From: Candidatus Stahliibacteriota bacterium
GTDB lineage: Bacteria > Hydrothermota > Tepidihabitantia > B3-TA06
Assembly: GCA_030592225.1 (NCBI GenBank)
Contig: JAUVJT010000001.1
Location: 1 to 39,115, forward strand
Direction: 5' to 3'
DNA: 39,115 bases
In this document: positions 15,134-34,916 of the stretch, piece by piece
How the letters are laid out: each line of letters opens with the position of its first letter
How positions within the stretch are numbered: position 1 is the first letter of the stretch
Notes under the pieces: generated by a model
The model's database searches: none
The model's input: only the letters and a program-made list of their open reading frames with translations
What the model was told of the DNA's origin: nothing
Position numbers and translations under genes: made by a program

Positions 15134-15161
15134 ATTGACAAATCGTCGGTTTCGCCTACAC
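15134..15161 (+). promoter_or_regulatory. sigma70-type promoter of the phosphorelay/EF-G operon
   Basis: TTGACA (15134-15139), 16 nt spacer, TACACT (15156-15161, overlapping a TATAAT at 15161-15166). Confidence 0.4.
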
Positions 15162-15206
15162 TATAATTCTAGTAATTTTGAATATCCAGCCATTCAAGGA
15201 GGTCTG

Positions 15207-16748
15207 GTGAACGCCAAAGATAAACGCATGCAGGAACTCATCGAAGCCGCCAATCTCAAGTCGCAGTTTCTTGCCAACATGAGTCATGAGCTGCGTACTC
15301 CCTTGAACTCCATTATCGGCTTCAGCGAACTCCTCATGGACGGCCTGGTGGGTGAACTCGCCGACAAGCAGGGTCATTACATGAAAATCATCCATTCCTC
15401 CGGCATAAACCTTCTGCGGCTGGTCAATGACATCCTGGACTTTTCGAAACTCGAGGCGGGCATGCTTGAGGTTTTTAATGAACCCACATATCTAGGGGAG
15501 GTGGTCAAAGACGTTTTGCGTGCCTACGACGTGGTCTCGGAACAAAAGGATCTCGAGATAAAGGTAGACATCCCTGCGGATATGCCGCCCATGATCACTG
15601 ACAGGCGCAAACTGGCACAGATAATTGACAACCTTTTGTCCAACGCCATAAAATTCACCGAACATGGCCGGGTGGAGATTGCGGCCAGACGTGAGGGCGA
15701 GCAGTTTATACTGAAGATTGCAGATACCGGCATAGGTATCGAGTCGCAGGATATGCCTCACATCTTTGATCCGTTCCAGCAGGTTGATTCATCAACCACG
15801 AGGCGTTACGAGGGAACCGGACTCGGCCTGGCCCTGGTTAAGAAATTGCTGGAGATTCAGAATGGAGCAATAGAAGCCGAAAGCACGCCCGGGCACGGGT
15901 CCATATTCACGTTCAAACTGCCGTTCGATGAGTTCAAACCGGAAGAGGTATCTTCAAAAGAGGAGTTGGTCCATAAGCTTCCCGAACCAGGTGATCGCCC
16001 CATACTGGTAGTGGAAGACAATCCTCTGGCGGCGAACCTGATGTCTGTGTGGCTTTCGGAAGCAGGCTACAAGGTTGAGGTGGCATCCACCGGAGAGGAA
16101 GCCCTGCAAAAGGCGGTGAGCATTGATCCGGCCGTCATCACCCTGGACATTCTGCTTCCCCAGATGGATGGCTGGCGGGTGCTGCATCGCCTCAAGGAGA
16201 TACCCAAAACCAAGAATACCCCAATCATTGTGGTTTCTATAGTTGAGGACCGGAGCTTCGGTCTCTCACTGGGGGCGGTGGATTACATGATCAAGCCTGT
16301 GTCTCGCACCAATCTCATCTCCAAGATAGAAAAACTCTCCAGAACCAGAGGCAGGCCGCACCGGATACTGGTGATTGACGACAATCCGGCGGACGTAAGT
16401 TTAATAGAGGAAATACTTCGCCTGGACGGCTACGAGGTACTCAAGGCTTCAGGAGGTGTGGAAGGCTTGAAAACGGCGCGCAGCGAGAAACCCGACCTGG
16501 TGATTCTCGACCTTATGATGCCCGACCTGGACGGTTTTGACGTAATGAGACTTCTTGCCTCGGATGAGACGACGAGAGAATTGCCGGTCATCCTCTTTAC
16601 TGCCAAGGACTTAACCGAAATAGATCGCGCCAATCTGGGTGAGAATATCCACGAAATCTTCGGCAAGGCACAGCTGAATAGAGACTCGCTTCGCGCCAAG
16701 ATCGCAGATCTTCTCGGTCAGGGGAAATTAAAAGAAGGCAACCGATGA
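15207..16748 (+). CDS. Hybrid sensor histidine kinase (coiled coil - HisKA - HATPase_c - REC - REC) with no recognisable sensor or TM domain
   Basis: H-box FLANMSHELRTPLNSI, N-box DNLLSNAIKFT, G-boxes DTGIGI / GTGLGLALV. Two receiver domains follow (ILVVEDNP..TLDILLPQMDG and ILVIDDNP..ILDLMMPDLDG). I prefer the GTG at 15207, 4 nt after AAGGAGG (15196-15202). The track start at 15135 and the ATG at 15228 are alternatives. Confidence 0.9.
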   Translation: MNAKDKRMQELIEAANLKSQFLANMSHELRTPLNSIIGFSELLMDGLVGELADKQGHYMKIIHSSGINLLRLVNDILDFSKLEAGMLEVFNEPTYLGEVVKDVLRAYDVVSEQKDLEIKVDIPADMPPMITDRRKLAQIIDNLLSNAIKFTEHGRVEIAARREGEQFILKIADTGIGIESQDMPHIFDPFQQVDSSTTRRYEGTGLGLALVKKLLEIQNGAIEAESTPGHGSIFTFKLPFDEFKPEEVSSKEELVHKLPEPGDRPILVVEDNPLAANLMSVWLSEAGYKVEVASTGEEALQKAVSIDPAVITLDILLPQMDGWRVLHRLKEIPKTKNTPIIVVSIVEDRSFGLSLGAVDYMIKPVSRTNLISKIEKLSRTRGRPHRILVIDDNPADVSLIEEILRLDGYEVLKASGGVEGLKTARSEKPDLVILDLMMPDLDGFDVMRLLASDETTRELPVILFTAKDLTEIDRANLGENIHEIFGKAQLNRDSLRAKIADLLGQGKLKEGNR

Positions 16749-17125
16749 GCCGGATACTGGTGATTGAAGACAACGAAGGAAATCTGGAGCTTATAAAGGT
16801 AGTTCTGGAAATGGCGGGGCACGAAGTGATAGGTGCGGCGAGCGCTGACGTTGGATTGTTAGCGGCCAGAAAAGCCCGTCCCGATCTTATACTTATGGAT
16901 ATGCATCTGCCCGGAATGGACGGCTACGAGGCGACGCGAATAATAAAGAGAGACGAGACCTTAAAGGATATTCCGGTAATCGCGGTCACCGCTATCATCG
17001 ATCACAAGGATGAAGAAGAGGTTCGCAATTGCGGCTGCAATGGATTCATCGCCAAACCCATAGATACCCGCAAGCTGCCTGATCAGATAGCCGGTTTCAT
17101 CGAAGAAAGGACGCAGGGAGCATGA
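16745..17125 (+). CDS. Single-domain response regulator (CheY-like receiver)
   Basis: ILVIEDNEGN...LILMDMHLPGMDG...AVTA...KP receiver signature. The ATGA start overlaps the kinase stop. Confidence 0.9.
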   Translation: MSRILVIEDNEGNLELIKVVLEMAGHEVIGAASADVGLLAARKARPDLILMDMHLPGMDGYEATRIIKRDETLKDIPVIAVTAIIDHKDEEEVRNCGCNGFIAKPIDTRKLPDQIAGFIEERTQGA

Positions 17126-18738
17126 ACGAGCAAAAACCCATCCCCCTCATACTGGTAGTTGATGATGATCCGCATCTTTTGAACCTTCTGGATCTGCGCC
17201 TTGCCGAACAGAAATTCAACGTAATGCTGGCTTCCTCCGCCCGGGAAGCGCTAAAGAAAGTAGAAGACAGGCAGCCGGACATAGTTATCGCCGACATCAT
17301 GATGCCCGGTATGGACGGCTATGAGTTGTGTAAACACGTCCGGGCAAACGAAAAACTGCACAACACCCCCTTTATATTCCTGTCCGCCCTGGCCGACACC
17401 CAGGATAAGGTCAAGGGTCTGCGGCTGGGTGCGGACGATTACCTTACAAAACCGTTCGAGTTCCACGAGCTTCTGGCACGAATAGAGATTCTTCTTGACC
17501 GCTACTCGCGCTACCAGGAGACCTTTGAAACCGATACCGAGATTGCCACCCAGGGGAAGATTGAGGATCTGGGGGTGATTGATCTTTTGCAGATGCTTTC
17601 CTTCGGACAAAAAACGGGCGAGGTGCATCTTGAGTCGGATGAGGAGAAAGGCTTTCTTTACCTGATGACCGGTAAGCTCATAGCTGCAACCTACGGGAAC
17701 AAACACGGAAAAGCCGCTCTGCCCAGCCTTCTTTCATGGACCCACGGCAAATTCAGCGTCAGGCTTACCGAGAGTCTCTCCGTGATCCCCACCATCGAGC
17801 ACCAGACCGACGAGGCCATCTTTGAAGCCTTAAGGGAACTGGACGAGGTCGAACGCATCAAGCAGGAACTCGATGAAAAATCGATACCGGTGTTTTCTAC
17901 AAAACCCGCTCCCGACACAAACCTTCACAAAATTCTGCTTCAGCTCGTAGACGGCGATCGCAATCTCGGCGAAGTCTTGCTGGCAAGCCCGTTCTCCGGC
18001 TTTGAGACCGCCAAGGGAATAAAGAAGTTGATGGCCGAAGGGCATATCAGTTTGGGCTCCGTGGGAACTCCGCCTCTACCCGGGGAGGCCCCGGAAACTC
18101 CTGCTGAGACTTCGGAGCCGACCCTGTCTGAAGCGGCCCGGGAATGGGAGCCTTTGATGCCCGGGGAAGTAAAAGCGGGCGATGAGGCTGCTATAGAGAA
18201 AACCGAGGTAAGGAAAGATGAAGCCCCGAAGGAAGAGCCTTGCGCTCCAACGGAAATCGAGACCCCTGGGCCGCAACCAAAGCCTCAAGAGTTCAACCTG
18301 ATCGTTATCGGTACGGACCGCGATTCCCGCAATACCTTTATCCATGCGCTCTCCGGAGAAGAGGAAGCGGAAGATAAAAGGGAGAAGGTGCTGAATTTCG
18401 GAAGAATTATCGTTGCCGGCCACCAGCTTAATCTGTACGGACTGCCCGGAGCAAAGCGCTTCGCCCCGCTCTGGCAGACCTTTATCCACAGGGTGCACGG
18501 AATGATACTTCTGGCTGACGCCGACATTGACGAAGAGGTGGAAAACCTGCGATTTGCGTCCTCCCTCCTGGGGCCGCGTATCAGCGGACCTAAGATTGTA
18601 ATAAACACCAATCCCACCCGGCCGGATATGGATTTCGATTCCGAAACGCATGGGGTTGAGATTATTACCTGCCTGCCTGCCGATCGGCCCAAAGCGAAAG
18701 AAATCACCAACCGGCTGCTTTCACAACTTCTCCGTTAA
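17122..18738 (+). CDS. Response-regulator fusion: REC + DUF4388/PATAN-like domain + Pro/Glu-rich linker + MglA/COG2229-like small-GTPase domain with degenerate nucleotide-binding motifs
   Basis: REC: [32 protein letters not shown]4388-like: [59 protein letters not shown]-terminal: [44 protein letters not shown], which is collinear with COG2229 GTPases. The ATGA start overlaps the upstream stop. Confidence 0.75.
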
Positions 18739-18745
18739 TTGCAAA

Positions 18746-20803
18746 ATGGATCTTGCGAAATTACGTAATATAGGTGTAGCCGCACACATAGACGCGGGCA
18801 AGACCACCACCACCGAGAGGGTACTTTACTACGCCAAGCGCATACATCGTATGGGAGATGTTGACGACGGGTCGGCCACCATGGACTGGATGCAGCAGGA
18901 ACGGGAGCGCGGAATTACCATAACCTCGGCGGCGACCATTGTGGGGTGGAAGAATTACCGGATAAATATAATCGACACGCCCGGGCACGTGGATTTCACC
19001 ATCGAGGTGGAGCGTGCGCTCAAGGTGCTGGACGGCGCGGTGGTGGTGTTTTGTGCAGTGGGCGGGGTGGAGCCGCAGTCCGAGACGGTATGGCGCCAGG
19101 CGAACCGGTATCATATCCCGCGCATCGCGTTCGTGAATAAGATGGACCGGGCGGGCGCGGATTTCGAGCGGGTGGTAGACATGATGGGAGCGCGTTTTCC
19201 CCAGACCCCCATCCCCATACAGATACCCTGGGGCGCGGAACAGGATTTCGCCGGGGTGATTGACCTTGTGGGATGGCGCGCCATCCGCTGGAAGGACGAG
19301 ACGTTGGGAGCCGAGTTCGTGGCGGAGGAGATACCTGTGGAGTTAGCGCGGGAGGCACAGCGCTGGAGGGAAATTCTGGTAAACAAGGCAGGCGAGGAAA
19401 ACGACAGGATAGTGGAAGATTTCATGGCGGGAAAGCAGACAGAGGAGACGGTGCTCAGGGAGGCTCTGCGCAAGCTAACCCTTAAGAACGAGATAATTCC
19501 GGTGCTGTGCGGCTCGGCCCTCAAGAACAAGGGGGTGCAGCCGCTTCTGGATGCGGTTATAGATTACCTGCCGTCGCCGCTCGACGTACCGTCCATACAA
19601 GGGCACGATCCTGCCGACGAGGCAAAGACCATATGCAGACGTGCCGATCCCGAAGAGCCTTTCTCAGCCCTGGTCTTCAAACTGACCCATTCCCCGCACA
19701 TGGGACCCCTGGCGTTCACCCGGGTCTACTCCGGTGTGCTGGAAAGGGGAACGACCGTCAAAACTTTTCCGGGCGACAACCGCTCGCGCGCCACCAAGCT
19801 GCTCCTGGCCCACTCCAATCACTTCGAGGAAGTACCCAGGCTCCAGGCCGGGGAGATAGGGTTGATCGCCGGGCTGCGGCACGTGACCACCGGAACCACC
19901 CTGTGCGATCAGAAGCATCCTATCGTATACGAACTCATGCGCTTTCCTGAACCGGTCATCCACCAGTCAGTCGAACCGCGCACCACGGCTGATGAGGCAA
20001 AGCTGGGCAAGACTCTGGAAATTCTTCAGTTGGAAGACCCCACCTTTACGGTACGAACCGACCCGGAAACCGGTCAACTACTCATAAGCGGTATGGGTGA
20101 GCTGCACCTGGAGATTTTGGTTGACCGCTTGAAGCGCGAGTTCAGAGTACCGGTAAGGACAGGTAAACCGCAAGTTTCGTATCGAGAGACAGTTACCCGG
20201 AAAACGGAACACTCCTTTACCTTCTCCCGCTTAATTGGCCAGAAGACCCATTACGCCGGCGTAACGTTGAAGATGGAACACCACGAAGGGGGCAAAGACG
20301 TAAGGATAAAACTTACCCTCCCCATCCCCAGAGAATTCCTGGATGCCATGCGTCAGAGCCTTACCGATTCGTTCAGCGCCGGCCCCATGCTGGGCTACCC
20401 TATAACCAACGTGCGAGTGACGGTTACCGACGTTGACTACCGGGAGGAGGATGCCTCGGACATCGCGTTCAAGGCGGCGGCGTCCCATGCGTTTACCGAA
20501 GCGTATCAGAACGCCTCGCCGGCCCTGCTTGAGCCTGTAATGGACGTGGAGGTCATCACCTCCGATGAGTACATGGGAGACGTGATTGCAGACCTGGGTA
20601 CGCGCCGGGGCAAGGTAGAGCTGGTTGAGAACATACAGGAACACAAGCTCATAAAGGCCTTTGTGCCGCTTGCGGCAAGCTTCGGGTATGCCACCACTTT
20701 AAGATCGTTGACCCAGGGACGCGCCAGCTTTGCCATGCACTTTTCCCACTACGCCGTACTGCCCGAAGAGCTGCGCAAAAAGCTGTTCGATTACATGGTG
20801 TGA
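18746..20803 (+). CDS. fusA: Elongation factor G family GTPase (divergent paralogue, not in a str-operon context)
   Basis: G1 [18 protein letters not shown]2 [10 protein letters not shown]3 DTPGHVDF, G4 NKMDR, G5 GSALKNKGV. All five EF-G domains are collinear. The ATG at 18746 lies 8 nt after the upstream stop; the track start at 18650 overlaps the previous gene. Confidence 0.9.
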
Positions 20804-20813
20804 TTAATATCAG

Positions 20814-21089
20814 CTAGGTTAAACTCTCTCCCCAATCAAACCGCAGTTCAATGCCCTGGGCATTCAGTTTTTCCTTAAGGTCTTTGTACCGCTTAAAGAA
20901 TTCACACGTCTTGGAAATCTTCCACTCGCAATAAGGGGTGCATTTTGATACGTCCTTATAGCCAACGTGGCAGTGCTTTTCGAAAAGAAAGTCACGCAGT
21001 GCATTAACCGCATCGTCAAACTGCTTCTTGGCCGGAGCGAACTTGACGATTTCCTGAATTAAACTTTCTACTCTTTCATCACCTGACAT
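20814..21089 (-). CDS. Small Cys-rich hypothetical protein (91 aa)
   Basis: ATG 7 nt after the tmk stop, with GGAG embedded (TGAGGAGTAAATG). C-H-x9-C-x3-C-x7-C spacing (KHCHVGYKDVSKCTPYCEWKISKTCEF). The region is AT-richer. I recognise no family. Confidence 0.5.
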   Translation of the reverse strand: MSGDERVESLIQEIVKFAPAKKQFDDAVNALRDFLFEKHCHVGYKDVSKCTPYCEWKISKTCEFFKRYKDLKEKLNAQGIELRFDWGESLT

Positions 21090-21917: not shown

Positions 21918-23918
21918 TTAGTAAGTAACGCTCAGCCCGCCATAGAATCGTCTTGGCGCGGTGGGATAGTCGAAGGTGCTGTAACCGCCGAAGTGTGCCG
22001 GGGTCTGGTCGTTGAGGATGTTACGGACGCCGGCTTCGATGGTGAGAATACTAAACAGCTTCTGGGATAGGGATGCGTCGAGCTTGAGGGACGGGTCAAT
22101 GGTCTTCTCCAGAACCCCGATATCGGGTGCGGTTGACCAGTCGGCGTAGTAGTTGACGCGCTCGCCTGTCCAGGCAAGGTTGGCGGCTATTTTGCCGCCC
22201 TTCCAGGCACGCACGGCAATATTGCCCTTGATGCTGAGCGACGGGATGAACGCGGCCTGACGGGTGACCTCTGCGGTTCGCGTCTGTCCTGTCATCCAGT
22301 CGGAATAGGTAACTATGGTGCGGGTTTCCGCTGCGTCGTTGTAGGCGACGCCCAGCGATCCGCTGAACAGGCCGTCGGCAATCCGCCAGTTTGTTGAAAA
22401 CTCCGCGCCCAGGACGCTAACCTGATCCACGTTTGACGGTCTCCAGAATCCTGCCGAATCGGACGACCACGAAATCATGTCCTTGATATCTTTCCATGAC
22501 CCAACCAGGGAGAACTTGAGAAAATCCAGAGGTCTTACGCCCACAGAAAGCGCTGCACTCTGTCCCTTCTCCGCAACCAGGGTTGAGTCGCCTCCTGAGA
22601 AGAAATCCGCGGGCCAGTAAAGGTCGTTGAACGAAGGCGCACGGAACGCCTGACCGTAGGCCGCTGAAACGTAGAGCATCCGTGGAACAACCTCGACGCT
22701 CAGACCGGCTTCAGGTGAAATGAAGGTTCCGTACTGAGCGGAGTTATCGAGTCTTACCGCCGCGCTCGGGGTAAAGATGCCCGCCTCAACCAATGCCTCA
22801 ACCCAGGCGCCTATCTGCATATCGGAGGCTTCCCAGGTGGTGTCCTTGAGGGTTACGTCAGTGGCGCTGTCTGCGGCAACCTGCGCGCCTTCAAACGTCT
22901 CCTGGACAATGGACGCTCCACCGGCAAGGGTGAGGAATTCGGCAATCGTTCCGGTTATCTGGAGATCGCCGCCCAGACGGGTGTCGCTGTAGTTATTGGT
23001 CGCAAGCGCGGTGTAGGTCATGAAGTCGGGATTGAAACCCTGGTATTTACAGTTGTAGGTGAAATCCTGCTGTACCGCGTAGAGAGCCAGCGAGGTGGTG
23101 AGGTTCTGTAATGGAGAGAAGGACGTTTTGAGGCTTGCAGTGAGCAGATTGTCGACCTGATTGTCGTAGAGCGATGTAACCAGCGAGTCGCCGAACGTTG
23201 GCATAACGAAGGCGGTGTCCGAAGCGTCAGGCGCAGGTCCGGGTACGCCCAGTTCGCGGGAGGTATAGCCTGCATCAACTTCGAGATGGAGCGCCTCGAT
23301 GGGGTCAACCCACAAGGCTGCATTGCCGTTGTAGCGCGATACGTCGTCGTTGTGACGGAACCCGGGGTTGGTAAGATAGGAACCGCTGGCACGCGCACCG
23401 AATATCCCGAAGCTGCGTGCGGCGCGAGCGCCCACGTTCATGCCCATTTGATCGGTGGCTCCGAAAGTTGCTGATAACCCATCTTTCTTCGATGGGATAA
23501 CGTTGAGTACCCCTCCGATGGCCGATGAGCCGTAAAGCGCGGATAGAGGTCCCTTTACGACCTCGACCCGGTCGCCCGGCATCATGGGGATAAGAGAGAG
23601 GTCTATCACCCCGTCGCGCCGGGTATTCATTGGGATACCATTTGAGAGGACGAGTACGCGGGATGCGGCAACCCCTCCCAGGAACGAGAAGGCCATGTGC
23701 CCTTCATAACCGTATGAACGCACGTCAGATGCAACGCTGCGCCCCAGGACGTCGGCCAGGTCGGTGACCTCTTCAGATTCCAGCACCTCGACCGGCCACG
23801 GGGATTTCTCGGCCGGAAGCGAGAGTCTTGTTGCGGTAATCACAACCGGCGGCAGCTCAAACACCGTATCGAGCGTCACTTGAGAAAAAAGCATGGATAT
23901 AAGCACGAGCTTTATCAC
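21918..23918 (-). CDS. btuB: TonB-dependent outer-membrane receptor, probable cobalamin/corrinoid transporter
   Basis: Signal peptide, plug region (VVITATRLSLPAEKSPWPVEVL...), GGVLNVI, a long beta-barrel and a C-terminal aromatic residue (..GGLSVTY). GTG start at 23918 with GGAG 7 nt upstream. A cobalamin riboswitch lies directly upstream. Confidence 0.85.
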   Translation of the reverse strand: MIKLVLISMLFSQVTLDTVFELPPVVITATRLSLPAEKSPWPVEVLESEEVTDLADVLGRSVASDVRSYGYEGHMAFSFLGGVAASRVLVLSNGIPMNTRRDGVIDLSLIPMMPGDRVEVVKGPLSALYGSSAIGGVLNVIPSKKDGLSATFGATDQMGMNVGARAARSFGIFGARASGSYLTNPGFRHNDDVSRYNGNAALWVDPIEALHLEVDAGYTSRELGVPGPAPDASDTAFVMPTFGDSLVTSLYDNQVDNLLTASLKTSFSPLQNLTTSLALYAVQQDFTYNCKYQGFNPDFMTYTALATNNYSDTRLGGDLQITGTIAEFLTLAGGASIVQETFEGAQVAADSATDVTLKDTTWEASDMQIGAWVEALVEAGIFTPSAAVRLDNSAQYGTFISPEAGLSVEVVPRMLYVSAAYGQAFRAPSFNDLYWPADFFSGGDSTLVAEKGQSAALSVGVRPLDFLKFSLVGSWKDIKDMISWSSDSAGFWRPSNVDQVSVLGAEFSTNWRIADGLFSGSLGVAYNDAAETRTIVTYSDWMTGQTRTAEVTRQAAFIPSLSIKGNIAVRAWKGGKIAANLAWTGERVNYYADWSTAPDIGVLEKTIDPSLKLDASLSQKLFSILTIEAGVRNILNDQTPAHFGGYSTFDYPTAPRRFYGGLSVTY

Positions 23919-24403: not shown

Positions 24404-25573
24404 ATGCGGACGTATGAGCGGACACACCCGTGGCTGACATTCACTCTTGATCTGCGTAAGGCTGACCATCGGTTATGGTTGGCTCTTGGGGAAGCTCAGG
24501 CCAAATGCGAATATATCGCAGGGGTGCCTTTGAGACCTGCAACAGCCACAAACCTTCACATGATTTATTTAGCCAAAGGGGCGCTGGCAACCACAGCAAT
24601 TGAGGGTAATACCCTTTCTGAAGAAGAAGCTCTCAAGCTTGTGCAGGGGCGTTCGGATCTTCCTCCCTCGAAGAAGTATCTTGCTCAGGAAGTGGAAAAC
24701 ATAGTTAAGGCCTACACTCAGATATTCAACAATCTCTTTGTTAAGGAAGAATCCCATGCTTTTCATCTGGAAAAGATAAAAGAGTTTAACCGCCTCGCCC
24801 TGAAGAACCTAGAGTTGCCGGAAGAAGTTAAGCCTGGGGAAATAAGAAATTACTCTGTCGGGATTGCCCAATACAGGGGAGCACCGCCCGAGGATTGCGA
24901 GTATCTTTTGAAGCGTTTGTGCGATTGGTTAAACAAAGAGAAAAATAGAGTTCCTAAGGGTCAGGAAATCGCTTTCGGCCTGATTCGAGCGATCATCGCC
25001 CATCTTTATCTGGCCTGGATACACCCCTTTGGCGACGGAAATGGTAGAACCGCCAGGTTGATGGAGTTCCAAATTCTTCTGGCTGCTGGCGCTCCGACAT
25101 TAGCCGTCCATTTACTTAGCAATCACTATAATCTCACCCGGCAGGAATACTACAGGCAACTGGATCGTGCCTCAAAATCAGGTGGGGATATTTTTCCATT
25201 CCTCCAATATGCTCTGCAAGGTTTTTTAGACGGTCTGGATGAACAGATGCAGGTGATTCAAATACAAGTTCTAAATGTATCCTGGAAAGACTACATCTAC
25301 GAAGCTTTTAAGGATCAACACAGTGAATCGGCTAGAAGAAGACGTAACCTGGCACTGGATTTGTCTTACAGGGCTGAACCAGTGCCGATATCGGGAATCA
25401 GACATATCAGCCCCGGTATAGCCGAGGCCTATGCAGGAAAGACGCACAAGACAATTACGCGTGATCTTAATTCGCTTGCAGAAATGGGTCTGGTAGAGCA
25501 GACACCGGAAGGGATTCGTGCTAAACGTGAAAAGATGCTGGCTTTTTTACCCAAACGAAGAGCAGACATCTAA
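24404..25573 (+). CDS. Fic family protein (class II, internally autoinhibited) with a C-terminal winged-helix domain
   Basis: Fic motif IHPFGDGNGRTARL (HxFx[DE]GNGRxxR). N-terminal inhibitory motif TTAIEG ([ST]xxxE[GN]). The C-terminal KTITRDLNSLAEMGLVEQ is wHTH-like. RBS AGGAGG at 24392-24397. Confidence 0.9.
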   Translation: MRTYERTHPWLTFTLDLRKADHRLWLALGEAQAKCEYIAGVPLRPATATNLHMIYLAKGALATTAIEGNTLSEEEALKLVQGRSDLPPSKKYLAQEVENIVKAYTQIFNNLFVKEESHAFHLEKIKEFNRLALKNLELPEEVKPGEIRNYSVGIAQYRGAPPEDCEYLLKRLCDWLNKEKNRVPKGQEIAFGLIRAIIAHLYLAWIHPFGDGNGRTARLMEFQILLAAGAPTLAVHLLSNHYNLTRQEYYRQLDRASKSGGDIFPFLQYALQGFLDGLDEQMQVIQIQVLNVSWKDYIYEAFKDQHSESARRRRNLALDLSYRAEPVPISGIRHISPGIAEAYAGKTHKTITRDLNSLAEMGLVEQTPEGIRAKREKMLAFLPKRRADI

Positions 25574-27226: not shown

Positions 27227-28477
27227 GTGGAAAAACTAGGCATCTTGATATTCTTGCCGGTGTTTCTGTGGGCGCTTGAAACGGTAAACCTACTCAAGGA
27301 TCACAGTTTCGAGAAAGACAGCGAGGTGTGGGTTACTTCAGCTGGTAGTAAGTGGGCAGGTATAGGAGAGGATTCAGCAATCGTAAATAGACATGATTCC
27401 CAAAGTTCATATGATGGATCGTTTTCCGCTTCCGGAGATACGAGAATAACCCCAGCTTGGGTTGGAATGGGAGGATTCGATTCTGCAATGGTCGTTCAGA
27501 GTTTTGCGAATAAGAAGATAGAGGATTTGGATAGTCTGATTTGGAGTCAGAAAGTGGTGTGGAAAAATGATAGTCGTGCGCTTACAGGATTATTCGTGAT
27601 TGGTCTTTTTCTGGATGCTTCTTCTGAAAATTGGTTCCAGTGGGGATATTCATTTGAAAGCCCTGATTTTGATTTTGGCATCATAGATCGATGGCAGAGG
27701 GTGTCTTCCGATATGCCTGATGATACGTTGTGGAAGGAATACGCTCGTGACCTTCAAAAAGATCTGGCTGCTAGTCACGATTTTCAGATCCCCGTCGATT
27801 CCTTTTTGTTGCTTAATTGGGGATTCTGGGGATCTGCCACTTTCTGGTATGGCCAGAAGGTTTACTGGGATGATATACGCTTGATGGGTTATGCGGATTA
27901 CGACGTAGGGGTGAAGGAAATACTTTCCGGTGACTCGCTGGAGGCTGGCACGCCTTACCAGCCTGTGGCACGTATTAAGAACTTCGGTAGTGAGAACGCG
28001 GACAGCTTTTTGGTCATTGCCGAGATTAAGGACGGAGCATCTCTCATCTACGTAGACACCCTGCCGTGGTCTCTTGACTCCGACACCGAGGATACCGTCA
28101 CCTTCGCCGACTTCGACCCGCCCTTCACCGGGCCGTACAACCTGACTGTTAGAACCTTTGCCGAACCCGACGAGTGCGACGAAGACGACGAACTATCAAA
28201 GGAAATCGGGCACTCGTCTGTATCTGAAGTCACTCTACCCGACGGCCTCTCGCTTGAGGTGCGCTCCATTGCGTCACCCTTACAGGTCTCCTACTCCCTG
28301 CCCTACGGCGAATCCGGCACTCTGACCCTCTATGATGCCACGGGCCGCCGCGTGGAGCGGATGGAGGTCAGTCATTCCGGTAACACGGAGTTTGTCGATT
28401 TAGCATCAGGCACGTACTTCATCAAACTTGAGGCTGACGGTATATCCGTTGTAGAGAAAGCGGTTGTACTGCGGTAA
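27227..28477 (+). CDS. Secreted T9SS cargo protein: CBM4_9-like jelly-roll + CARDB-like domain + T9SS type A C-terminal sorting domain
   Basis: Signal peptide MEKLGILIFLPVFLWA. NLLKDHSFEKDSEVW...VYWDDIRL brackets a CBM4/9-like module. YDVGVKEI..PVARIKNFGSENADSF is CARDB-like. The C-terminal ..TLTLYDATGRRVERMEV..LASGTYFIKLEADGISVVEKAVVLR is a textbook Por/T9SS CTD. Confidence 0.85.
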   Translation: MEKLGILIFLPVFLWALETVNLLKDHSFEKDSEVWVTSAGSKWAGIGEDSAIVNRHDSQSSYDGSFSASGDTRITPAWVGMGGFDSAMVVQSFANKKIEDLDSLIWSQKVVWKNDSRALTGLFVIGLFLDASSENWFQWGYSFESPDFDFGIIDRWQRVSSDMPDDTLWKEYARDLQKDLAASHDFQIPVDSFLLLNWGFWGSATFWYGQKVYWDDIRLMGYADYDVGVKEILSGDSLEAGTPYQPVARIKNFGSENADSFLVIAEIKDGASLIYVDTLPWSLDSDTEDTVTFADFDPPFTGPYNLTVRTFAEPDECDEDDELSKEIGHSSVSEVTLPDGLSLEVRSIASPLQVSYSLPYGESGTLTLYDATGRRVERMEVSHSGNTEFVDLASGTYFIKLEADGISVVEKAVVLR

Positions 28478-29711: not shown

Positions 29712-31490
29712 ATGGCTTTCTTATTTCTGCTACTGCTTCAATCAAGCTTTGCACCCTGCTCGTCACTCTTGCTCGGCGGCGACTACCGGGCCGGGGCAGC
29801 CGATGACTCACTGCTCTACGTCGCAGACGGCAGGGGCATAAGCGCATTTGAGCAAAGGGCATTCAAACGCCGCGGCGACATTCTGCTGTCGGGCAAAACC
29901 TCTCATGCCGCCCTGTATGGTTCAAGCATCTTCGTAGGTGGAACCCGGGGACTGGCAAGGTTCGATGTCGGCATCCTGTCGCAGCCCGGGCACGTATATC
30001 AGCAGAACACCGAGGTGGAATGGCTGCACCGGGAGCCTGTCACTGCCCTGGAGGTATCCGGGAACAGGCTGTGGTTTGTAGACGCTTCCGGCCGGGTGTA
30101 CGGCATGAACCTGAGAGAAGGCGAAGACGCCTCTCCTTTAGAATTCGCCAGGCTTCCCGTTCCCGCGGTAAGAATCGTGCAGGCTGAGGCGCTCCTCTAC
30201 CTTGCTGCGGACACCGCAGGGGTTTTCGTGCTGGACCTCGATGCCGGGGAATCGCAGGCCAGGAAGCTGACCGTCGAGGATAATCCTCCGGTTGTGGATA
30301 TCCTGGTAGCAGGCGATAAGCTGTACCTGGCGTGCGCCGAGGAAGGATTATGGGCAACTCAGCCCAAACGCAACTCGCTTAAGGTTATCTCGCGCGTTGA
30401 TGCGGCCGGCGAGGTGATGAGCCTGGAGCTTTTCGGCGACAGAATCGCCGCAGCCTCGGGAAGCAAAGATTTCAGTCTCTTTTCAACAGATAGCCCGGAG
30501 GGCCTCGCCCAAATACAGGTGGAGCGCCTGCCCGGAACCGGGCTTGAACTCATAAAGGCTGGAACGAATTGTTTCGTGCTCACGGAAACAGGCATAGGGC
30601 GCATGGATATCTCCACCGCTCCCCTGGCAGGGCACGGGGTGTTCTTCAGGGGGAACGGTTCTGGCCACGATATCCTGACCCGCGGTGAAATCGCCGTTCT
30701 CGCGGCAGGCAAAGCCGGCGTGCAAATCATAGATTTGCAGGATACCCTTAGCTTGCTCGGCACCTACTCTGATGCAGCAGACTGCTGGAAGGCCTATCTT
30801 TTCGGGTCCCAGGTTTATGCCATGACTAAGGCCAACATAATGCAGGTTTCGGAGATAAAAAATCCCGCCAGGCCCGAGAAACGCACCTTTCTGAAGTTCT
30901 CCTCGGTGACTTCAGGGGTGGATACCGAGGGCGAAATGCTCCTTGCCGCCGAGCATGAGCAAGGCGTGGGGGTGTGGTGGCGCTGTCCTTGCGGCCCGTT
31001 CAAAGAACAGGGACGCTGGAGTCCCGGCGGCGAGGCGCTCGACGTTAAAATCAGAGAACAACTGGCTTTCGTCTCGACCGATATGGCAGCCCTGCACGTG
31101 ATTGACTGGTCGGACAGCGCCAACCCTGAAGAGCTTACCAGTCTGGCGCTGAACCGGGACTATGAGAGATTGTATCTGGACGAGGATCTTCTCTTCGGCC
31201 TGGATTCCTCAGGGGCGTTGGTATTGATTGACGTATCCCGCCCTACACGACCCAGAGAAGTGGCCGTGCTGGAACTCCCGGGCGCTCCCGCAGCGCTCGC
31301 ACGTCACCAGGACCGCTTGTTTATTGCCGCTCGGGACGAAGGGGTGCACGTAGTTGACATTTCCAAGCCCTCCTCGCCCGAATTGGTAGAGACCATCGAC
31401 GTGGAACCGGCCATGGGGGTGGCTATTTCCGGCAACAGACTGCTGGTCTGCACCCCCTATTCGGTAGAAGAGTATAAAATTCAACCTTAA
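29712..31490 (+). CDS. LVIVD-repeat beta-propeller protein (paralogue 1)
   Basis: About 13-14 repeats of roughly 40 aa with the LVIVD signature, e.g. GVFVLDLDAGE, AGVQIIDLQD, ALHVIDWSDSANPEEL, GALVLIDVSRPTRPREV, EGVHVVDISKPSSPELV. The N-terminus is hydrophobic (probable signal peptide, no basic n-region). Confidence 0.8.
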   Translation: MAFLFLLLLQSSFAPCSSLLLGGDYRAGAADDSLLYVADGRGISAFEQRAFKRRGDILLSGKTSHAALYGSSIFVGGTRGLARFDVGILSQPGHVYQQNTEVEWLHREPVTALEVSGNRLWFVDASGRVYGMNLREGEDASPLEFARLPVPAVRIVQAEALLYLAADTAGVFVLDLDAGESQARKLTVEDNPPVVDILVAGDKLYLACAEEGLWATQPKRNSLKVISRVDAAGEVMSLELFGDRIAAASGSKDFSLFSTDSPEGLAQIQVERLPGTGLELIKAGTNCFVLTETGIGRMDISTAPLAGHGVFFRGNGSGHDILTRGEIAVLAAGKAGVQIIDLQDTLSLLGTYSDAADCWKAYLFGSQVYAMTKANIMQVSEIKNPARPEKRTFLKFSSVTSGVDTEGEMLLAAEHEQGVGVWWRCPCGPFKEQGRWSPGGEALDVKIREQLAFVSTDMAALHVIDWSDSANPEELTSLALNRDYERLYLDEDLLFGLDSSGALVLIDVSRPTRPREVAVLELPGAPAALARHQDRLFIAARDEGVHVVDISKPSSPELVETIDVEPAMGVAISGNRLLVCTPYSVEEYKIQP

Positions 31491-31503
31491 AGGAGAGTGA
31501 AGG

Positions 31504-33267
31504 ATGCTTACAGGATTGCTCCTAACCTTGATGGCGGCGGCGCCGGAGGTGATGTTTGGGGATGCGGGGAATTACTTCGTAGCAGGAGATTTCGCAGATA
31601 TCGTGGAGGTTGATGGGACCATCTACGCGGCAAGCGGTTTTGGGTTGACGACAGTTCCCGCAGACCTCAGCTCGCAGGAGCATTTTCCCACGCCATACTA
31701 CTCGCGGAAGATTGCATCGGCTGACAAACGGTTATACCTCGGTGAAGGCACGAGGATTACCGCATTCAAGGTATCTGGCAAAGCCGTACAGATGCTGGCC
31801 TCTTACCCGGTACAAGGCAGAATAACCGCACTGGCAGCCGGCAAGGATTTCGTGGCCGCGGGTACGGATTCGGCAAAAGTGGAGATATTCTCACAAGACT
31901 CCAGGCTGAAACCGATTGCCGTCATCGATATGCCCGAAACTGTGAAGGATATCGTCTTTTACAAGGGATTCCTCTACGCGGCCTGCGGCAGGGAAGGAGT
32001 TGTTATCATAAGACTGGGAGATGCTCCGGCTAAAGTGGGAGAACTTTCCCTATCCGGCGCCCGGGCTTTGGAGGTTGGTGAAAATACTCTGTTTGTGGCC
32101 ATCGCTTCTACGGAGATTTATGGTTTCTCCCTGGCCGACCCCGCCTCACCTCAAGAGAAGATCAAGTTCTCAAGTTCCTCGCCTGCGGTCTCGCTTGCAT
32201 ATTACGACAAGCATCTGTACGCCGCACAGAGATACCAGGGCTACTCCATCTTCAACCTGCGCGGCGAACGAGTTGAACTGGCCGAGCCGTTCCGCCAGGG
32301 CGACGTGGTGGACATTCTGCCCACCGATGAGGGCGTGTTTCTGGCGCTGCGGGAGGCGGGAGTTGTGCGTCTGGAAGATGAAACCCTCGCCGAGCTAACC
32401 CTCACCGCTCGTCTTGAGCAAAACTCCCCGTCAATTCACACCACCCAAAGCGGTTCGTTCTGGGCGGTGGCTCGCGGCGAGGATGGTGCAAGTATCGTAA
32501 GGCTGTTTGAAGGCGAGACCTTTGTGACCCTGGGCCATGCCGAGCCTCCGCCTTCAAATGCGGCAGGCGTTTTTCTCTCCGGAACCTATCTGTACGTGGC
32601 CGACGTCAAACACGGCGCTTCCATATACAACATGAAAACCTTCCCTGTGGCCGAACGCAGCTTTGACCTGCACCAGCCGGGCGAGCCGCAGCGCATCAAC
32701 CTGACCAATGATTTGATACCCCTTGCCGCAGGTGAATGGGGACTAAGGGTACTGTGGATATGCCCTTGCGGCCCGCTCAAACAGCGCTCAGCCCTGGGAG
32801 GCTTCACCGCTGTAGACGTCGCGGCCCGGGATTCAATCATATACGTGGCCGATCCCGACTCAGGCCTGCGAATCATGGAGGTGAGCGAGGAAGGGGTCAA
32901 ACTCACCCAGCTTTCCGTATACCCAGGGGTAATAAGCCCCCGGGCGCTATTGCGTGACGGAGATGTTCTGTACGTGGCGGACAGCATCGGCGCAATCGCG
33001 GCGCTGGACGTATCCGACCCCGCCAACCCCGAACAGCTTTCCTTCACCTTTATAGACACCCGACCTTACGGACTGGATATTGAGAATTCAACCCTGTACG
33101 TGGCCTGCGGCGAGAGCGGAGTGTTAGAGATAGATGTGAGTGATCCCTCGGCGCCGAAGCCCGGCGAGTTCATCGAAACACCGGGCAAGGCCCTTGCGGT
33201 TGCCGCATCGAAGCGCCATCTGGGTGTGGCCGACTACACATCCTGGATACTCCTGCCTCTGGAGTAA
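31504..33267 (+). CDS. LVIVD-repeat beta-propeller protein (paralogue 2)
   Basis: RBS AAGGAGAG. Repeats such as GVVIIRLGD, SGLRIMEVSEEG, GAIAALDVSDPANPEQL, SGVLEIDVSDPSAPKP. Collinear with paralogue 1, including the CPCGP motif. The N-terminus is hydrophobic. Confidence 0.8.
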   Translation: MLTGLLLTLMAAAPEVMFGDAGNYFVAGDFADIVEVDGTIYAASGFGLTTVPADLSSQEHFPTPYYSRKIASADKRLYLGEGTRITAFKVSGKAVQMLASYPVQGRITALAAGKDFVAAGTDSAKVEIFSQDSRLKPIAVIDMPETVKDIVFYKGFLYAACGREGVVIIRLGDAPAKVGELSLSGARALEVGENTLFVAIASTEIYGFSLADPASPQEKIKFSSSSPAVSLAYYDKHLYAAQRYQGYSIFNLRGERVELAEPFRQGDVVDILPTDEGVFLALREAGVVRLEDETLAELTLTARLEQNSPSIHTTQSGSFWAVARGEDGASIVRLFEGETFVTLGHAEPPPSNAAGVFLSGTYLYVADVKHGASIYNMKTFPVAERSFDLHQPGEPQRINLTNDLIPLAAGEWGLRVLWICPCGPLKQRSALGGFTAVDVAARDSIIYVADPDSGLRIMEVSEEGVKLTQLSVYPGVISPRALLRDGDVLYVADSIGAIAALDVSDPANPEQLSFTFIDTRPYGLDIENSTLYVACGESGVLEIDVSDPSAPKPGEFIETPGKALAVAASKRHLGVADYTSWILLPLE

Positions 33268-34915: not shown

Positions 34916-34916
34916 G

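What the first reader, a model, noticed from the sequence alone, without database searches (positions are those of the whole stretch)
18746..20803. EF-G paralogue with intact G-domain but divergent domain IV tip loops
G1-G5 are canonical. The two domain IV loops that contact the decoding centre in canonical EF-G read ..KQSGGRGQYGHVVI.. and ..GSYHDVDSSE.. in E. coli. In this protein they are ..[15 protein letters not shown].. and ..[12 protein letters not shown].., so the GG, the conserved His and the HDVDS signature are missing. Divergent EF-G paralogue families are known from comparative genomics, and some specialise in recycling or have unknown roles. This one is also operon-linked to signalling proteins.
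Basis: partly seen in the sequence, partly recalled or inferred. Interest (0 to 1): 0.65.

Follow-up and report, generated by a model that had tools for sequence, protein, structure and literature searches.

The report
Signal-linked EF-G paralogue, rebuilt tip
This gene encodes a complete, GTPase-competent relative of the ribosomal translocase EF-G whose decoding-centre-contacting tip has been rebuilt, and it is always the last gene of a four-gene signalling cassette, which suggests a translation factor under direct control of a phosphorelay.

Summary
Window 18746-20803 (+) encodes a 685-aa five-domain EF-G-family protein with canonical G1-G5. In domain IV, loop I reads [13 protein letters not shown] where canonical EF-G has QSGGRGQYGHV. 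Loop II reads [10 protein letters not shown] where canonical EF-G has DGSYHDVDSS. The changes are not noise: about 20 relatives (72-82% identical; WOR-3/TA06/Stahlbacteria MAGs) share them and dN/dS is about 0.1. They are concentrated in domain IV, which keeps 49% of canonical invariant sites, against 94% in the G domain and 100% in domain V. The clade falls inside the WOR-3 EF-G radiation and does not group with the tip-divergent Treponema/Deltaproteobacteria EF-Gs that I read as spdEFG2-like. In every locus with upstream DNA (at least 9 lineages, differing flanks) the gene directly follows a hybrid histidine kinase, a CheY-like receiver and a REC-PATAN protein with a degenerate Ras-like domain. 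My best reading is a translocation-impaired, ribosome-binding GTPase, probably for ribosome splitting or translation throttling, partnered with or gated by the REC-PATAN protein. I could not show a canonical EF-G in the same genome, so "paralogue" remains inferred. I found no paper describing this association. I rate it a new variant of a known kind.

The parts
15135..16748 (+). Hybrid histidine kinase with HisKA, HATPase_c and two receiver domains. It has no recognisable sensor or transmembrane segment. The true start is probably 20-30 codons downstream of the listed TTG.
   Evidence: Pfam hits for HisKA, HATPase_c and Response_reg x2. The H-box SHELRTP and the N/G boxes are read. Orthologues at 70-75% identity sit at the same position in all related loci.
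16745..17125 (+). Stand-alone CheY-like receiver protein (126 aa). Its start overlaps the kinase stop by 4 nt.
   Evidence: Pfam Response_reg. Orthologues at 66-83% identity occupy the same position.
17122..18738 (+). REC-PATAN(DUF4388) protein. After PATAN come a small helical domain, a disordered Pro/Glu-rich linker and a C-terminal Ras-like domain whose P-loop is degenerate (a pseudo-GTPase). Its start overlaps the previous stop by 4 nt.
   Evidence: Pfam Response_reg and DUF4388/PatA_N, plus Arf at 23.3 bits on the C-terminal 149 aa. The AF2 model (pLDDT 80) shows beta-alpha-beta small-GTPase topology over residues 389-537. The alignment shows IGTDRDSRN where relatives outside the EF-G-linked group have GxxxxGKS. 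The phospho-acceptor D58 and K110 are invariant.
18746..20803 (+). EF-G family protein (called EF-G' here), 685 aa, five domains. It starts 7 nt after the stop of the REC-PATAN gene.
   Evidence: AF2 model with pLDDT 83.9 whose best Foldseek matches are EF-G structures. dN/dS is 0.06-0.14.
18746..19585 (+). G domain with G' insert (residues 1-280). G1-G5 and the catalytic His81 are intact. Residues 30-31 are A-K instead of the canonical T-G.
   Evidence: Motifs read. 94% of canonical invariant sites are kept. The T34A/G35K change is 100% against 100%.
20168..20524 (+). Domain IV (residues 475-593), the part of the protein that has diverged.
   Evidence: Only 49% of canonical invariant sites are kept. 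Identity to WOR-3 canonical EF-G is 38-43% here against 56-58% for the rest of the protein. The best match in 1.84 billion representatives is only 41-44% identical.
20225..20263 (+). Domain IV loop [14 protein letters not shown] (residues 494-506). The second universal Gly, Q507, G512, Q513 and G515 are replaced.
20432..20461 (+). Domain IV loop [12 protein letters not shown] (residues 563-572). H583 is replaced by R, and G580, S581, V585 and S587 are also replaced. Y582, the acidic residues at 584, 586 and 589, and S588 are kept.

Best explanation
EF-G' is a lineage-specific duplicate of the WOR-3 EF-G. It still docks on the ribosome's GTPase centre and hydrolyses GTP, but its domain IV tip has been rebuilt, so it is no longer a fast, frame-keeping translocase. 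It is made together with a phosphorelay (hybrid kinase, then CheY-like receiver, then REC-PATAN-pseudoGTPase), and it most likely works with it. I propose that the phosphorylation state of the REC-PATAN protein, whose PATAN domain is a protein-docking output module, decides whether EF-G' can engage ribosomes. Once engaged, EF-G' would use GTP to split or recycle post-termination, idle or stalled ribosomes. Alternatively it would slow elongation by competing with the canonical factor. Shown here: the five-domain architecture, the intact G motifs, the tip changes, purifying selection, the phylogenetic position and the invariant gene linkage. Inferred: ribosome binding, loss of efficient translocation, physical interaction with the REC-PATAN protein, the splitting or throttling output, and the presence of a second, canonical EF-G in the same cell.
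For: (1) The ribosome- and GTP-handling parts are intact. TIGR00484 scores 868 bits. G1-G5 are present. Canonical invariant sites are kept at 94% in G and 100% in domain V. The fold is that of EF-G.
(2) The tip is specifically rebuilt and then conserved: 17 of 29 discordant sites lie in domain IV, the new motifs are shared by 20 clade members, and dN/dS in domain IV is 0.08-0.2.
(3) The very residues changed here are known to matter. H583R, Q507 mutants, D586V and S587 mutants in E. coli slow translocation, raise -1 frameshifting 3-7 fold and are dominant-lethal (PMC7749637). Loop I is dispensable for RRF-dependent splitting, and most loop II point mutants still split ribosomes (PMC4666400). 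The recycling-only factors EF-G2mt and Borrelia EF-G2 each carry a substitution of one of the two loop I glycines (PMC8203779). EF-G' replaces the second glycine, and the L100 relative replaces the first.
(4) The HK-REC-REC/PATAN-EF-G' cassette is present in every related locus with upstream DNA, in at least 9 lineages with at least 5 different flank arrangements. The gap between the REC-PATAN stop and the EF-G' start ranges from a 20-nt overlap to 7 nt.
(5) The link extends to a distant sister group at 56-58% identity (P0014, L100).
(6) PATAN is documented as the output domain that docks onto an NTPase motor, PilB1 (bioRxiv 10.1101/2021.06.11.447907).
(7) The Ras-like domain has lost its P-loop only in the EF-G'-linked branch of the REC-PATAN-GTPase family. 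A Nitrospira relative with an intact P-loop is not next to an EF-G.
(8) The clade sits within the WOR-3 EF-G radiation, which also contains many canonical-loop EF-Gs.
Against: No genome was shown to hold both EF-G' and a canonical EF-G. For two annotated MAGs that carry EF-G' (TA06 B3_TA06 and JAFGSK01), no canonical EF-G from the same organism appeared in the two top-120 lists. The NJ tree puts the EF-G' group as sister to all other WOR-3 EF-Gs, which an orthologue in a basal lineage would also produce. H583R costs only 2-10 fold in translocation rate in E. coli, so the factor may still translocate. Loop II is needed for recycling in E. coli and is heavily substituted here. Gene adjacency is not proof of physical interaction. 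No frr gene lies nearby. No experiment exists for any member.
Confidence: 0.45

Rival explanations
1. EF-G' is a constitutive recycling-specialised EF-G2, a functional analogue of spdEFG2/EF-G2mt. It works with RRF while a canonical EF-G translocates. The two-component genes only set its transcription, or are merely neighbours, and no protein-level control exists.
For: The loop I glycine substitution matches that in EF-G2mt and Borrelia EF-G2. Loop I is dispensable for splitting. The G domain is intact. EFG I-type duplicates with split roles exist in P. aeruginosa (PMC3832671). Several other tip-divergent lineages in WOR-3 point to recurrent subfunctionalisation.
Against: The REC-PATAN regulator has no DNA-binding domain, so the cassette is not an ordinary transcriptional two-component system. 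The tight, invariant coupling of EF-G' to the REC-PATAN gene across 56-82% identity goes beyond what co-regulation alone usually preserves. A housekeeping recycling factor would be expected across all WOR-3, yet this clade has only about 20 clusters against more than 100 canonical ones.
Confidence: 0.2
2. EF-G' is the only EF-G of these organisms: an orthologue in a basal WOR-3/TA06 lineage whose tip co-evolved with its ribosome. It still performs both translocation and recycling, and the signalling neighbours are lineage-specific gene order.
For: No co-resident canonical EF-G was found. The group is sister to the other WOR-3 EF-Gs. Canonical WOR-3 EF-G genes are also outside the str operon. 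H583R retains 10-50% of the translocation rate in E. coli. There is strong purifying selection.
Against: Every changed position is 90-100% conserved in 105 canonical EF-Gs from many phyla, including fast-evolving WOR-3 ones. In the Margus 2011 survey a single EF-G in a genome was always canonical EFG I. Tip divergence arose at least four times within WOR-3 EF-Gs, which is easy under duplication and hard for a sole essential factor. EF-G' is 53% identical to the canonical EF-G of an organism whose Mfd is 51% identical to the window's Mfd, whereas EF-G orthologues normally stay far more conserved than Mfd (my own knowledge). The divergence is confined to one domain.
Confidence: 0.17
3. EF-G' is a ribosome-protection protein in the manner of Tet(M)/Tet(O). 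Its rebuilt tip loops would dislodge an A-site or decoding-centre antibiotic, and the kinase cassette would sense the drug or the stalled state.
For: Tet proteins are EF-G derivatives whose domain IV tip loops are differentially conserved and do the dislodging (PMC4342817). EF-G' also changes exactly those loops.
Against: NCBIfam tet_protect scores 354 bits against a cut-off of 775, and all specific Tet models score far below threshold. Overall the protein is much closer to EF-G. The kinase has no sensor domain. There is no mobile-element context, and the gene is vertically inherited within one phylum.
Confidence: 0.05
4. EF-G' has left translation and serves as the GTPase of a PATAN-based polarity or motility-type switch, replacing the dead Ras-like domain of its partner.
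For: Related REC-PATAN proteins carry an intact small GTPase, and the P-loop is lost exactly where EF-G' is linked. PATAN proteins are known from pilus and polarity control.
Against: Ribosome-contacting parts are the best conserved: 100% of canonical invariant sites in domain V and 94% in the G domain. All five domains remain under purifying selection. No pilus or motility genes are in the neighbourhoods.
Confidence: 0.06

Closest known systems
spdEFG2 / mitochondrial EF-G2mt (recycling-only EF-G paralogues; Borrelia EF-G2)
   Same: It is a full five-domain EF-G with a working G domain. The domain IV tip departs from the universal consensus, including substitution of a loop I glycine. The Treponema and Deltaproteobacteria sequences I read as spdEFG2-like also lack GGxGQY and YHxVDS yet pass TIGR00484.
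   Different: The origin is independent. EF-G' groups with WOR-3 EF-Gs (89-100%) and not with the Treponema/Deltaproteobacteria group (0-1%). Its loop II carries R/K at position 583 rather than S/N/D. Its recycling activity is untested. It is embedded in a signalling cassette, which is not reported for spdEFG2 or EF-G2mt.
EFG I-subfamily duplicates with divided labour (P. aeruginosa EF-G1A/EF-G1B; gcEFG2)
   Same: Like these, it is a within-EF-G duplication that family HMMs cannot separate from EF-G.
   Different: The Pseudomonas pair is 84% identical. EF-G' is 53-56% identical to its nearest canonical relatives, with loss concentrated in domain IV.
Tet(M)/Tet(O) ribosomal protection proteins
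   Same: They are EF-G-derived GTPases whose function changed through differential conservation of the domain IV tip loops.
   Different: EF-G' scores far below every Tet model threshold. It shows no resistance or mobile context, and it keeps the G' insert and an EF-G-like domain V.
EFG II (Thermus EF-G-2, mycobacterial EF-G2) and Bacteroides EF-G2
   Same: They are accessory EF-G paralogues thought to act under particular conditions.
   Different: EFG II has a divergent G domain and an altered RGITI motif, whereas EF-G' has canonical G motifs. The scores are 386 bits against a cut-off of 890 for NF009377 and 424 against 1000 for NF058620.
PatA-type PATAN response regulators (PixG/PixE/PilG) acting on the PilB1 motor ATPase
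   Same: A receiver domain is coupled to a PATAN output domain that acts by docking on an NTPase machine rather than on DNA.
   Different: The domain order is REC-PATAN, not PATAN-REC. There is an extra degenerate Ras-like domain. The kinase is a HisKA-type hybrid kinase rather than CheA. The presumed target is a translational GTPase.

Membership tests
Canonical EF-G (EFG I / TIGR00484) | Five-domain architecture (G with G', II, III, IV, V) and a family HMM score above the curated cut-off | tested here: met
   All Pfam domains are present. TIGR00484 scores 868 bits against 659. The AF2 model plus Foldseek matches EF-G structures.
Canonical EF-G (EFG I / TIGR00484) | G1-G5 motifs and the catalytic His of DTPGH | tested here: met
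   [22 protein letters not shown] and SALKNKG are read.
Canonical EF-G (EFG I / TIGR00484) | Domain IV loop I with two universal glycines and Q507 (QxGGxGQYG) | tested here: not met
   The sequence is [11 protein letters not shown]. The second Gly, Q507, G512, Q513 and G515 are replaced. The universality of the glycines is stated in PMC8203779.
Canonical EF-G (EFG I / TIGR00484) | Domain IV loop II with H583 and the (D/E)VDS signature | tested here: not met
   The sequence is [10 protein letters not shown], with H583R and S587A.
Canonical EF-G (EFG I / TIGR00484) | Location in the str operon (rpsL-rpsG-fusA-tuf) | tested here: not met
   The gene lies in the HK-REC-REC/PATAN cassette. Canonical-loop WOR-3 EF-Gs are also outside the str operon, so this feature is weak in this phylum.
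Canonical EF-G (EFG I / TIGR00484) | Catalyses fast, frame-keeping translocation | not testable with these tools
   This needs biochemistry. Mutant data for the same positions predict impairment.
spdEFG2 / EF-G2mt | Phylogenetic grouping with spdEFG2/mtEFG2 | tested here: not met
   In NJ bootstrap, support for grouping with the Treponema/Deltaproteobacteria tip-divergent EF-Gs is 0-1%. Support for grouping with WOR-3 EF-Gs is 89-100%. That the Treponema/Deltaproteobacteria sequences are spdEFG2 is my inference from their taxa and from Margus 2011.
spdEFG2 / EF-G2mt | Substitution of a universal loop I glycine | tested here: met
   The second Gly is replaced by Q/T/N in the clade, and the first Gly by Ala in L100, as compared.
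spdEFG2 / EF-G2mt | Co-occurrence with a translocation-specialised partner EF-G in the same genome | tested here: inconclusive
   Three look-ups of candidate partners landed in other assemblies, and the GTDB scan was swamped.
spdEFG2 / EF-G2mt | RRF-dependent ribosome splitting without translocation activity | not testable with these tools
   This needs biochemistry.
Tet(M)/Tet(O) ribosomal protection proteins | Family HMM score above cut-off | tested here: not met
   NF012153 scores 354 bits against 775, and the specific Tet models score 187-256 bits against 900-1425.
EFG II / EF-G2 (NF009377) and Bacteroides EF-G2 (NF058620) | Family HMM score above cut-off and a divergent G domain with altered RGITI | tested here: not met
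   The scores are 386 against 890 and 424 against 1000. RGITI is intact. The G-domain criterion comes from PMC3150367.
PatA-type PATAN response regulators (for the upstream partner, 17122-18738) | PATAN (DUF4388/PF14332) domain plus a receiver domain with a phospho-acceptor Asp | tested here: met
   Pfam hits. D58 and K110 are invariant.
PatA-type PATAN response regulators (for the upstream partner, 17122-18738) | PATAN-REC domain order and a chemotaxis-type (CheA) system context | tested here: not met
   The order is REC-PATAN with a Ras-like C-terminal domain. The neighbouring kinase is a HisKA hybrid kinase.

The most novel reading that the evidence does not exclude
A bacterial phosphorelay acts directly on the ribosome through a dedicated EF-G-like GTPase. 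The phosphorylated REC-PATAN-pseudoGTPase adaptor loads or releases a tip-remodelled EF-G, which competes with the canonical translocase. This would switch the cell between normal elongation and a slowed, frameshift-prone or ribosome-splitting regime. Such post-translational, signal-gated control of translation elongation by a two-component system has no described precedent that I could find.
Probability: 0.25. Interest if true: 0.85.

Novelty: new variant of a known kind. Interest (0 to 1): 0.6.

Why it matters
EF-G paralogues with altered tips are known, such as the recycling-only EF-G2 of mitochondria and spirochaetes and the Tet proteins. In those cases the paralogue is either constitutive or a resistance gene. 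Here an independently evolved tip-remodelled EF-G is locked into a cassette with a kinase, two receivers and a PATAN docking module that has no DNA-binding output. The simplest reading is therefore signal control of a translational GTPase at the protein level. If that is true, it gives a directly testable example of a two-component system whose output is the ribosome. It also shows that automated annotation and 50%-identity clustering hide such factors. The protein is named 'elongation factor G' and passes the equivalog threshold. It also appears to be folded into a canonical EF-G's 50% cluster, since its domain IV found no close representative. Finally, WOR-3 contains at least four independent tip-divergent EF-G lineages, which makes the phylum a natural experiment in how the translocase can be repurposed.

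Tried and rejected
(1) The longer ORF from 18650 was rejected. It overlaps the upstream gene, and all homologues start at the 18746 ATG.

(2) A pseudogene or a relaxed copy was rejected. dN/dS is 0.06-0.14 for the whole gene and 0.08-0.2 in domain IV.

(3) Membership of spdEFG2, EFG II, Bacteroides EF-G2 or the Tet families was rejected on HMM thresholds and trees.

(4) The single GTDB genome scan was wasted.

(5) The exhaustive representative search with domain IV did not recover the clade itself. No hit reached E 1e-30 and the best was 41-44% identical, presumably because the clade sits in a canonical EF-G's 50% cluster. It did show how common tip-divergent EF-Gs are.

(6) Same-genome co-occurrence was tried through accession numbers and through three contig look-ups of candidate canonical partners (P0203, P0022, P0024). 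All came from other assemblies, and the look-ups are now exhausted.

(7) The Foldseek search of the REC-PATAN model returned only receiver-domain hits. The Ras-like assignment of its C-terminus therefore rests on the Pfam Arf hit, the predicted topology and the P-loop in relatives.

(8) The promoter and terminator scans gave nothing above background.

(9) I considered whether domain IV had been swapped in from another family. Its best matches are a mix of canonical and divergent sequences at about 40% identity, and the tree is the same with or without domain IV, so there is no support for a swap.
Full report
THE GENE AND THE OBSERVATION

The window has an ORF from 18650 to 20803 (+). The biologically sensible start is the ATG at 18746, 7 nt after the stop of the upstream gene. 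This gives a 685-aa protein that begins [10 protein letters not shown], as all its relatives do. It has every EF-G Pfam domain: GTP_EFTU, EF-G_D2, EFG_III, EFG_IV and EFG_C. It scores 868 bits on the NCBIfam EF-G equivalog TIGR00484, whose cut-off is 659, so pipelines name it 'elongation factor G' (names). G1 AHIDAGKT, G2 RGITI, G3 DTPGH, G4 NKMD and G5 SALKNKG are all present.

Loop I of domain IV reads [13 protein letters not shown] opposite KQSGGRGQYGHV. Loop II reads [10 protein letters not shown] opposite GSYHDVDSS. There are no insertions or deletions. In E. coli mature numbering the changes include Q507L, G510Q (the second universal glycine), G512T, Q513H, G515A, G580V, S581D, H583R, V585E and S587A.

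THE CHANGES ARE NOT NOISE

A search of 5.8 billion proteins found a tight clade: 13 clusters at 72-82% identity plus cluster members. They are named candidate division WOR-3, TA06 bacterium B3_TA06 or Candidatus Stahlbacteria. Identity then drops sharply to 56% and below.

All clade members share the new motifs, [RK]xIGxxxHYAGV and [YF][RK]E[DE]xAS. I found 29 sites that are at least 90% conserved in canonical EF-G and replaced in the clade, and 17 of them lie in domain IV.

Retention of canonical invariant sites by domain:

| Domain | Canonical invariant sites kept |
|---|---|
| G | 94% |
| II | 76% |
| III | 84% |
| IV | 49% |
| V | 100% |

Where dS is not saturated, dN/dS is 0.06-0.14 for the gene and 0.08-0.2 for domain IV. 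The AlphaFold2 model is confident (pLDDT 83.9, with domain IV blocks around 90) and matches EF-G structures. The protein is therefore a functional EF-G-fold GTPase whose tip was rebuilt and then held fixed.

PHYLOGENETIC POSITION

Neighbour-joining trees with bootstrap put the clade, together with a more distant sister pair, inside one group with all WOR-3-type EF-Gs. The sister pair is P0014 and the L100 gene, at 56-58% identity, with loops RQI[GA]GxxxYAK and DAEY[RK]ENES. Support for the WOR-3 grouping was 89% and 97% in a first set and 100% in a larger set. The two EF-G' sub-clades group together at 95% with all sites and 64% without domain IV.

A domain IV query against 1.84 billion representatives showed that many EF-G-family proteins lack canonical loops. 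These include Treponema and Deltaproteobacteria 'EF-G' sequences that also pass TIGR00484. From their taxa and from Margus 2011 I take these to be spdEFG2-like. EF-G' does not group with them (0-1% bootstrap).

HMM thresholds exclude the EFG II, Bacteroides EF-G2 and Tet families. The tip divergence is therefore an independent event within WOR-3. The WOR-3 radiation also contains at least three further tip-divergent lineages among many canonical-loop ones.

GENE CONTEXT

Immediately upstream, with 4-nt overlaps and then a 7-nt gap, lie three genes.
- The first is a soluble hybrid histidine kinase with HisKA, HATPase and two receivers, and no sensor domain (15135-16748).
- The second is a single-domain receiver (16745-17125).
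- The third is a 538-aa REC-PATAN protein (17122-18738).

The same order, kinase, receiver, REC-PATAN, EF-G', is found in every related locus with upstream DNA:
- loci from NCBI MAGs, Logan assemblies and JGI metagenomes;
- ten JGI contigs retrieved with a loop-specific profile;
- the distant sister group, which adds a GAF kinase.

The flanks differ: argS/tmk, TrmO/valS, MFS, SLBB-Wzz/ExbD-TonB-Fic, superoxide reductase-ferritin, and transglutaminase-GrpE-DnaK. The conserved unit is therefore the cassette itself. Matching contig lengths in the two homologue tables suggest four more co-located pairs.

THE REC-PATAN PARTNER

The REC-PATAN protein has an intact phospho-acceptor site (D58 and K110 are invariant) and no DNA-binding domain. 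It has a disordered acidic/proline linker and a C-terminal domain with small-GTPase topology (AF2) that hits Pfam Arf.

Relatives outside the EF-G'-linked branch, for example in Nitrospira, keep a GxxxxGKS P-loop and are not next to an EF-G. The EF-G'-linked ones have lost the P-loop (IGTDRDSRN). [quoted passage not shown]

WHAT THE TIP CHANGES IMPLY

All of the following comes from published work.
- The two loop I glycines are described as universal and needed for insertion into the decoding centre. EF-G2mt replaces the second glycine and Borrelia EF-G2 the first, and both are recycling-only (PMC8203779).
- In E. coli, loop I can be deleted without loss of RRF-dependent splitting.
- Loop II deletions or S588P abolish splitting, but most loop II point mutants do not.
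- H583K, S588P and E589A block translocation and are toxic (PMC4666400).
- H583R, Q507H/D, D586V and S587Y/P are dominant-lethal, slow translocation and raise -1 frameshifting 3-7 fold (PMC7749637).

EF-G' naturally carries H583R/K, a hydrophobic residue at position 507, S587A and the loss of the second glycine. It keeps loop length, Y582, the acidic residues at 584, 586 and 589, and S588. The expected phenotype is a factor that still reaches the A-site and bridge B2a region, is a poor and error-prone translocase, and could still split ribosomes.

BEST EXPLANATION AND RIVALS

I commit to the following, at about 0.45. EF-G' is a duplicate of the WOR-3 EF-G specialised away from frame-keeping translocation. 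It acts on the ribosome as a GTPase, most likely in splitting or recycling, or as a brake on elongation. It is partnered with or gated by the phosphorylation state of the REC-PATAN-pseudoGTPase protein. Ribosome binding, the interaction with the partner and the output are inferences.

The rivals are:
- a constitutive recycling EF-G2 without protein-level control (0.2);
- the sole EF-G of a basal lineage (0.17);
- a Tet-like protection protein (0.05);
- a non-ribosomal GTPase of a PATAN switch (0.06).

THE MAIN WEAKNESS

I could not show a canonical EF-G in the same genome.
- The window has none.
- Accession look-ups and three contig look-ups pointed to other assemblies.

The indirect arguments for paralogy are as follows.
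- The changed residues are universal in canonical EF-G.
- Divergence is confined to one domain.
- Tip divergence arose repeatedly within one phylum.
- In the 2011 survey, genomes with a single EF-G always had the canonical type.
- EF-G' is about as diverged from a canonical WOR-3 EF-G (53%) as the far less constrained Mfd is between the same two organisms (51%).

KNOWN OR NEW

Full-text searches found no paper that mentions both DUF4388 and elongation factor G in a relevant way, none that combines WOR-3 with EF-G, and none on EF-G paralogues in two-component operons. The kind of object, a tip-divergent EF-G paralogue, is known. The independent origin, the particular tip and the obligatory signalling cassette are new. 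I rate it a new variant of a known kind, with interest 0.6.

Noticed in passing
Related proteins P0217, P0224, P0230-P0233, P0218, P0219, P0227, P0220, P0225 and P0169 (not in the window): The WOR-3 EF-G radiation contains at least three further lineages with non-canonical domain IV tips. Examples are IE[DE]xxxYAEV/YDPKNS, IIDNKLHxAEI/Y[NS]KENPS and KTADKGHFAVV/EFSEEESS. They are phylogenetically separate from the REC-PATAN-linked one. Their gene contexts were not examined.
   Followed up: partly
Loci L090 5935-8013, L097 6001-8079, L102 6001-8061: EF-G genes of WOR-3 that keep the universal loop I glycines and H583 are stand-alone genes, not in an rpsL-rpsG-fusA-tuf operon. The str-operon criterion for the 'main' EF-G therefore does not apply in this phylum.
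   Followed up: partly
Window 18833-18838 (EF-G' residues 30-31): The T-G dipeptide just after the P-loop helix is 100% conserved in 105 canonical EF-Gs. It is A-K in 100% of the 20 clade members, while the sister group keeps T-G. This is the only sharply discordant site in the G domain and it is unexplained.
   Followed up: no
Locus L101 8001-9323 (Candidatus Nitrospira bockiana); proteins P0303-P0364: A wider family of REC-PATAN proteins of about 440-460 aa has a C-terminal small-GTPase domain, many with an intact GxxxxGKS P-loop. It occurs in other phyla. The Nitrospira copy sits next to clpX, not next to an EF-G. This architecture appears to be unannotated beyond 'response regulator'.
   Followed up: partly
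Proteins P0372-P0521 (representative library): About half of the 150 representatives most similar to this domain IV lack GGxGQY and/or YHxVDS. Full-length examples from Treponema and Deltaproteobacteria still pass the TIGR00484 'equivalog' threshold. The EF-G equivalog model therefore does not separate tip-divergent paralogues from canonical EF-G.
   Followed up: partly
Window 21918-23918 (-) and 24404-25573 (+): A TonB-dependent receptor and a Fic-domain protein downstream of the cassette are syntenic with loci L085, L086 and L094 (60-77% identity). In the window, tmk and a 91-aa ORF with no Pfam hit (20814-21089) are inserted between them and EF-G'.
   Followed up: partly
Window 29712-33267 and 33551-36278: Two tandem LVIVD-repeat proteins are followed by two tandem, slightly overlapping radical-SAM genes. 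The function is unknown.
   Followed up: no
Window 1245-2486, 27227-28477, 37551-38912 (-): Three ORFs of more than 400 aa have no Pfam match at E 1e-5.
   Followed up: no
Locus L100 4628-11433: In the sister sub-clade the cassette has five genes (hybrid HK, REC, GAF-HK, REC-PATAN, EF-G'), with a 20-nt overlap between the last two. It lies close to grpE-dnaK-dnaJ, separated from it by a transglutaminase-like gene.
   Followed up: partly
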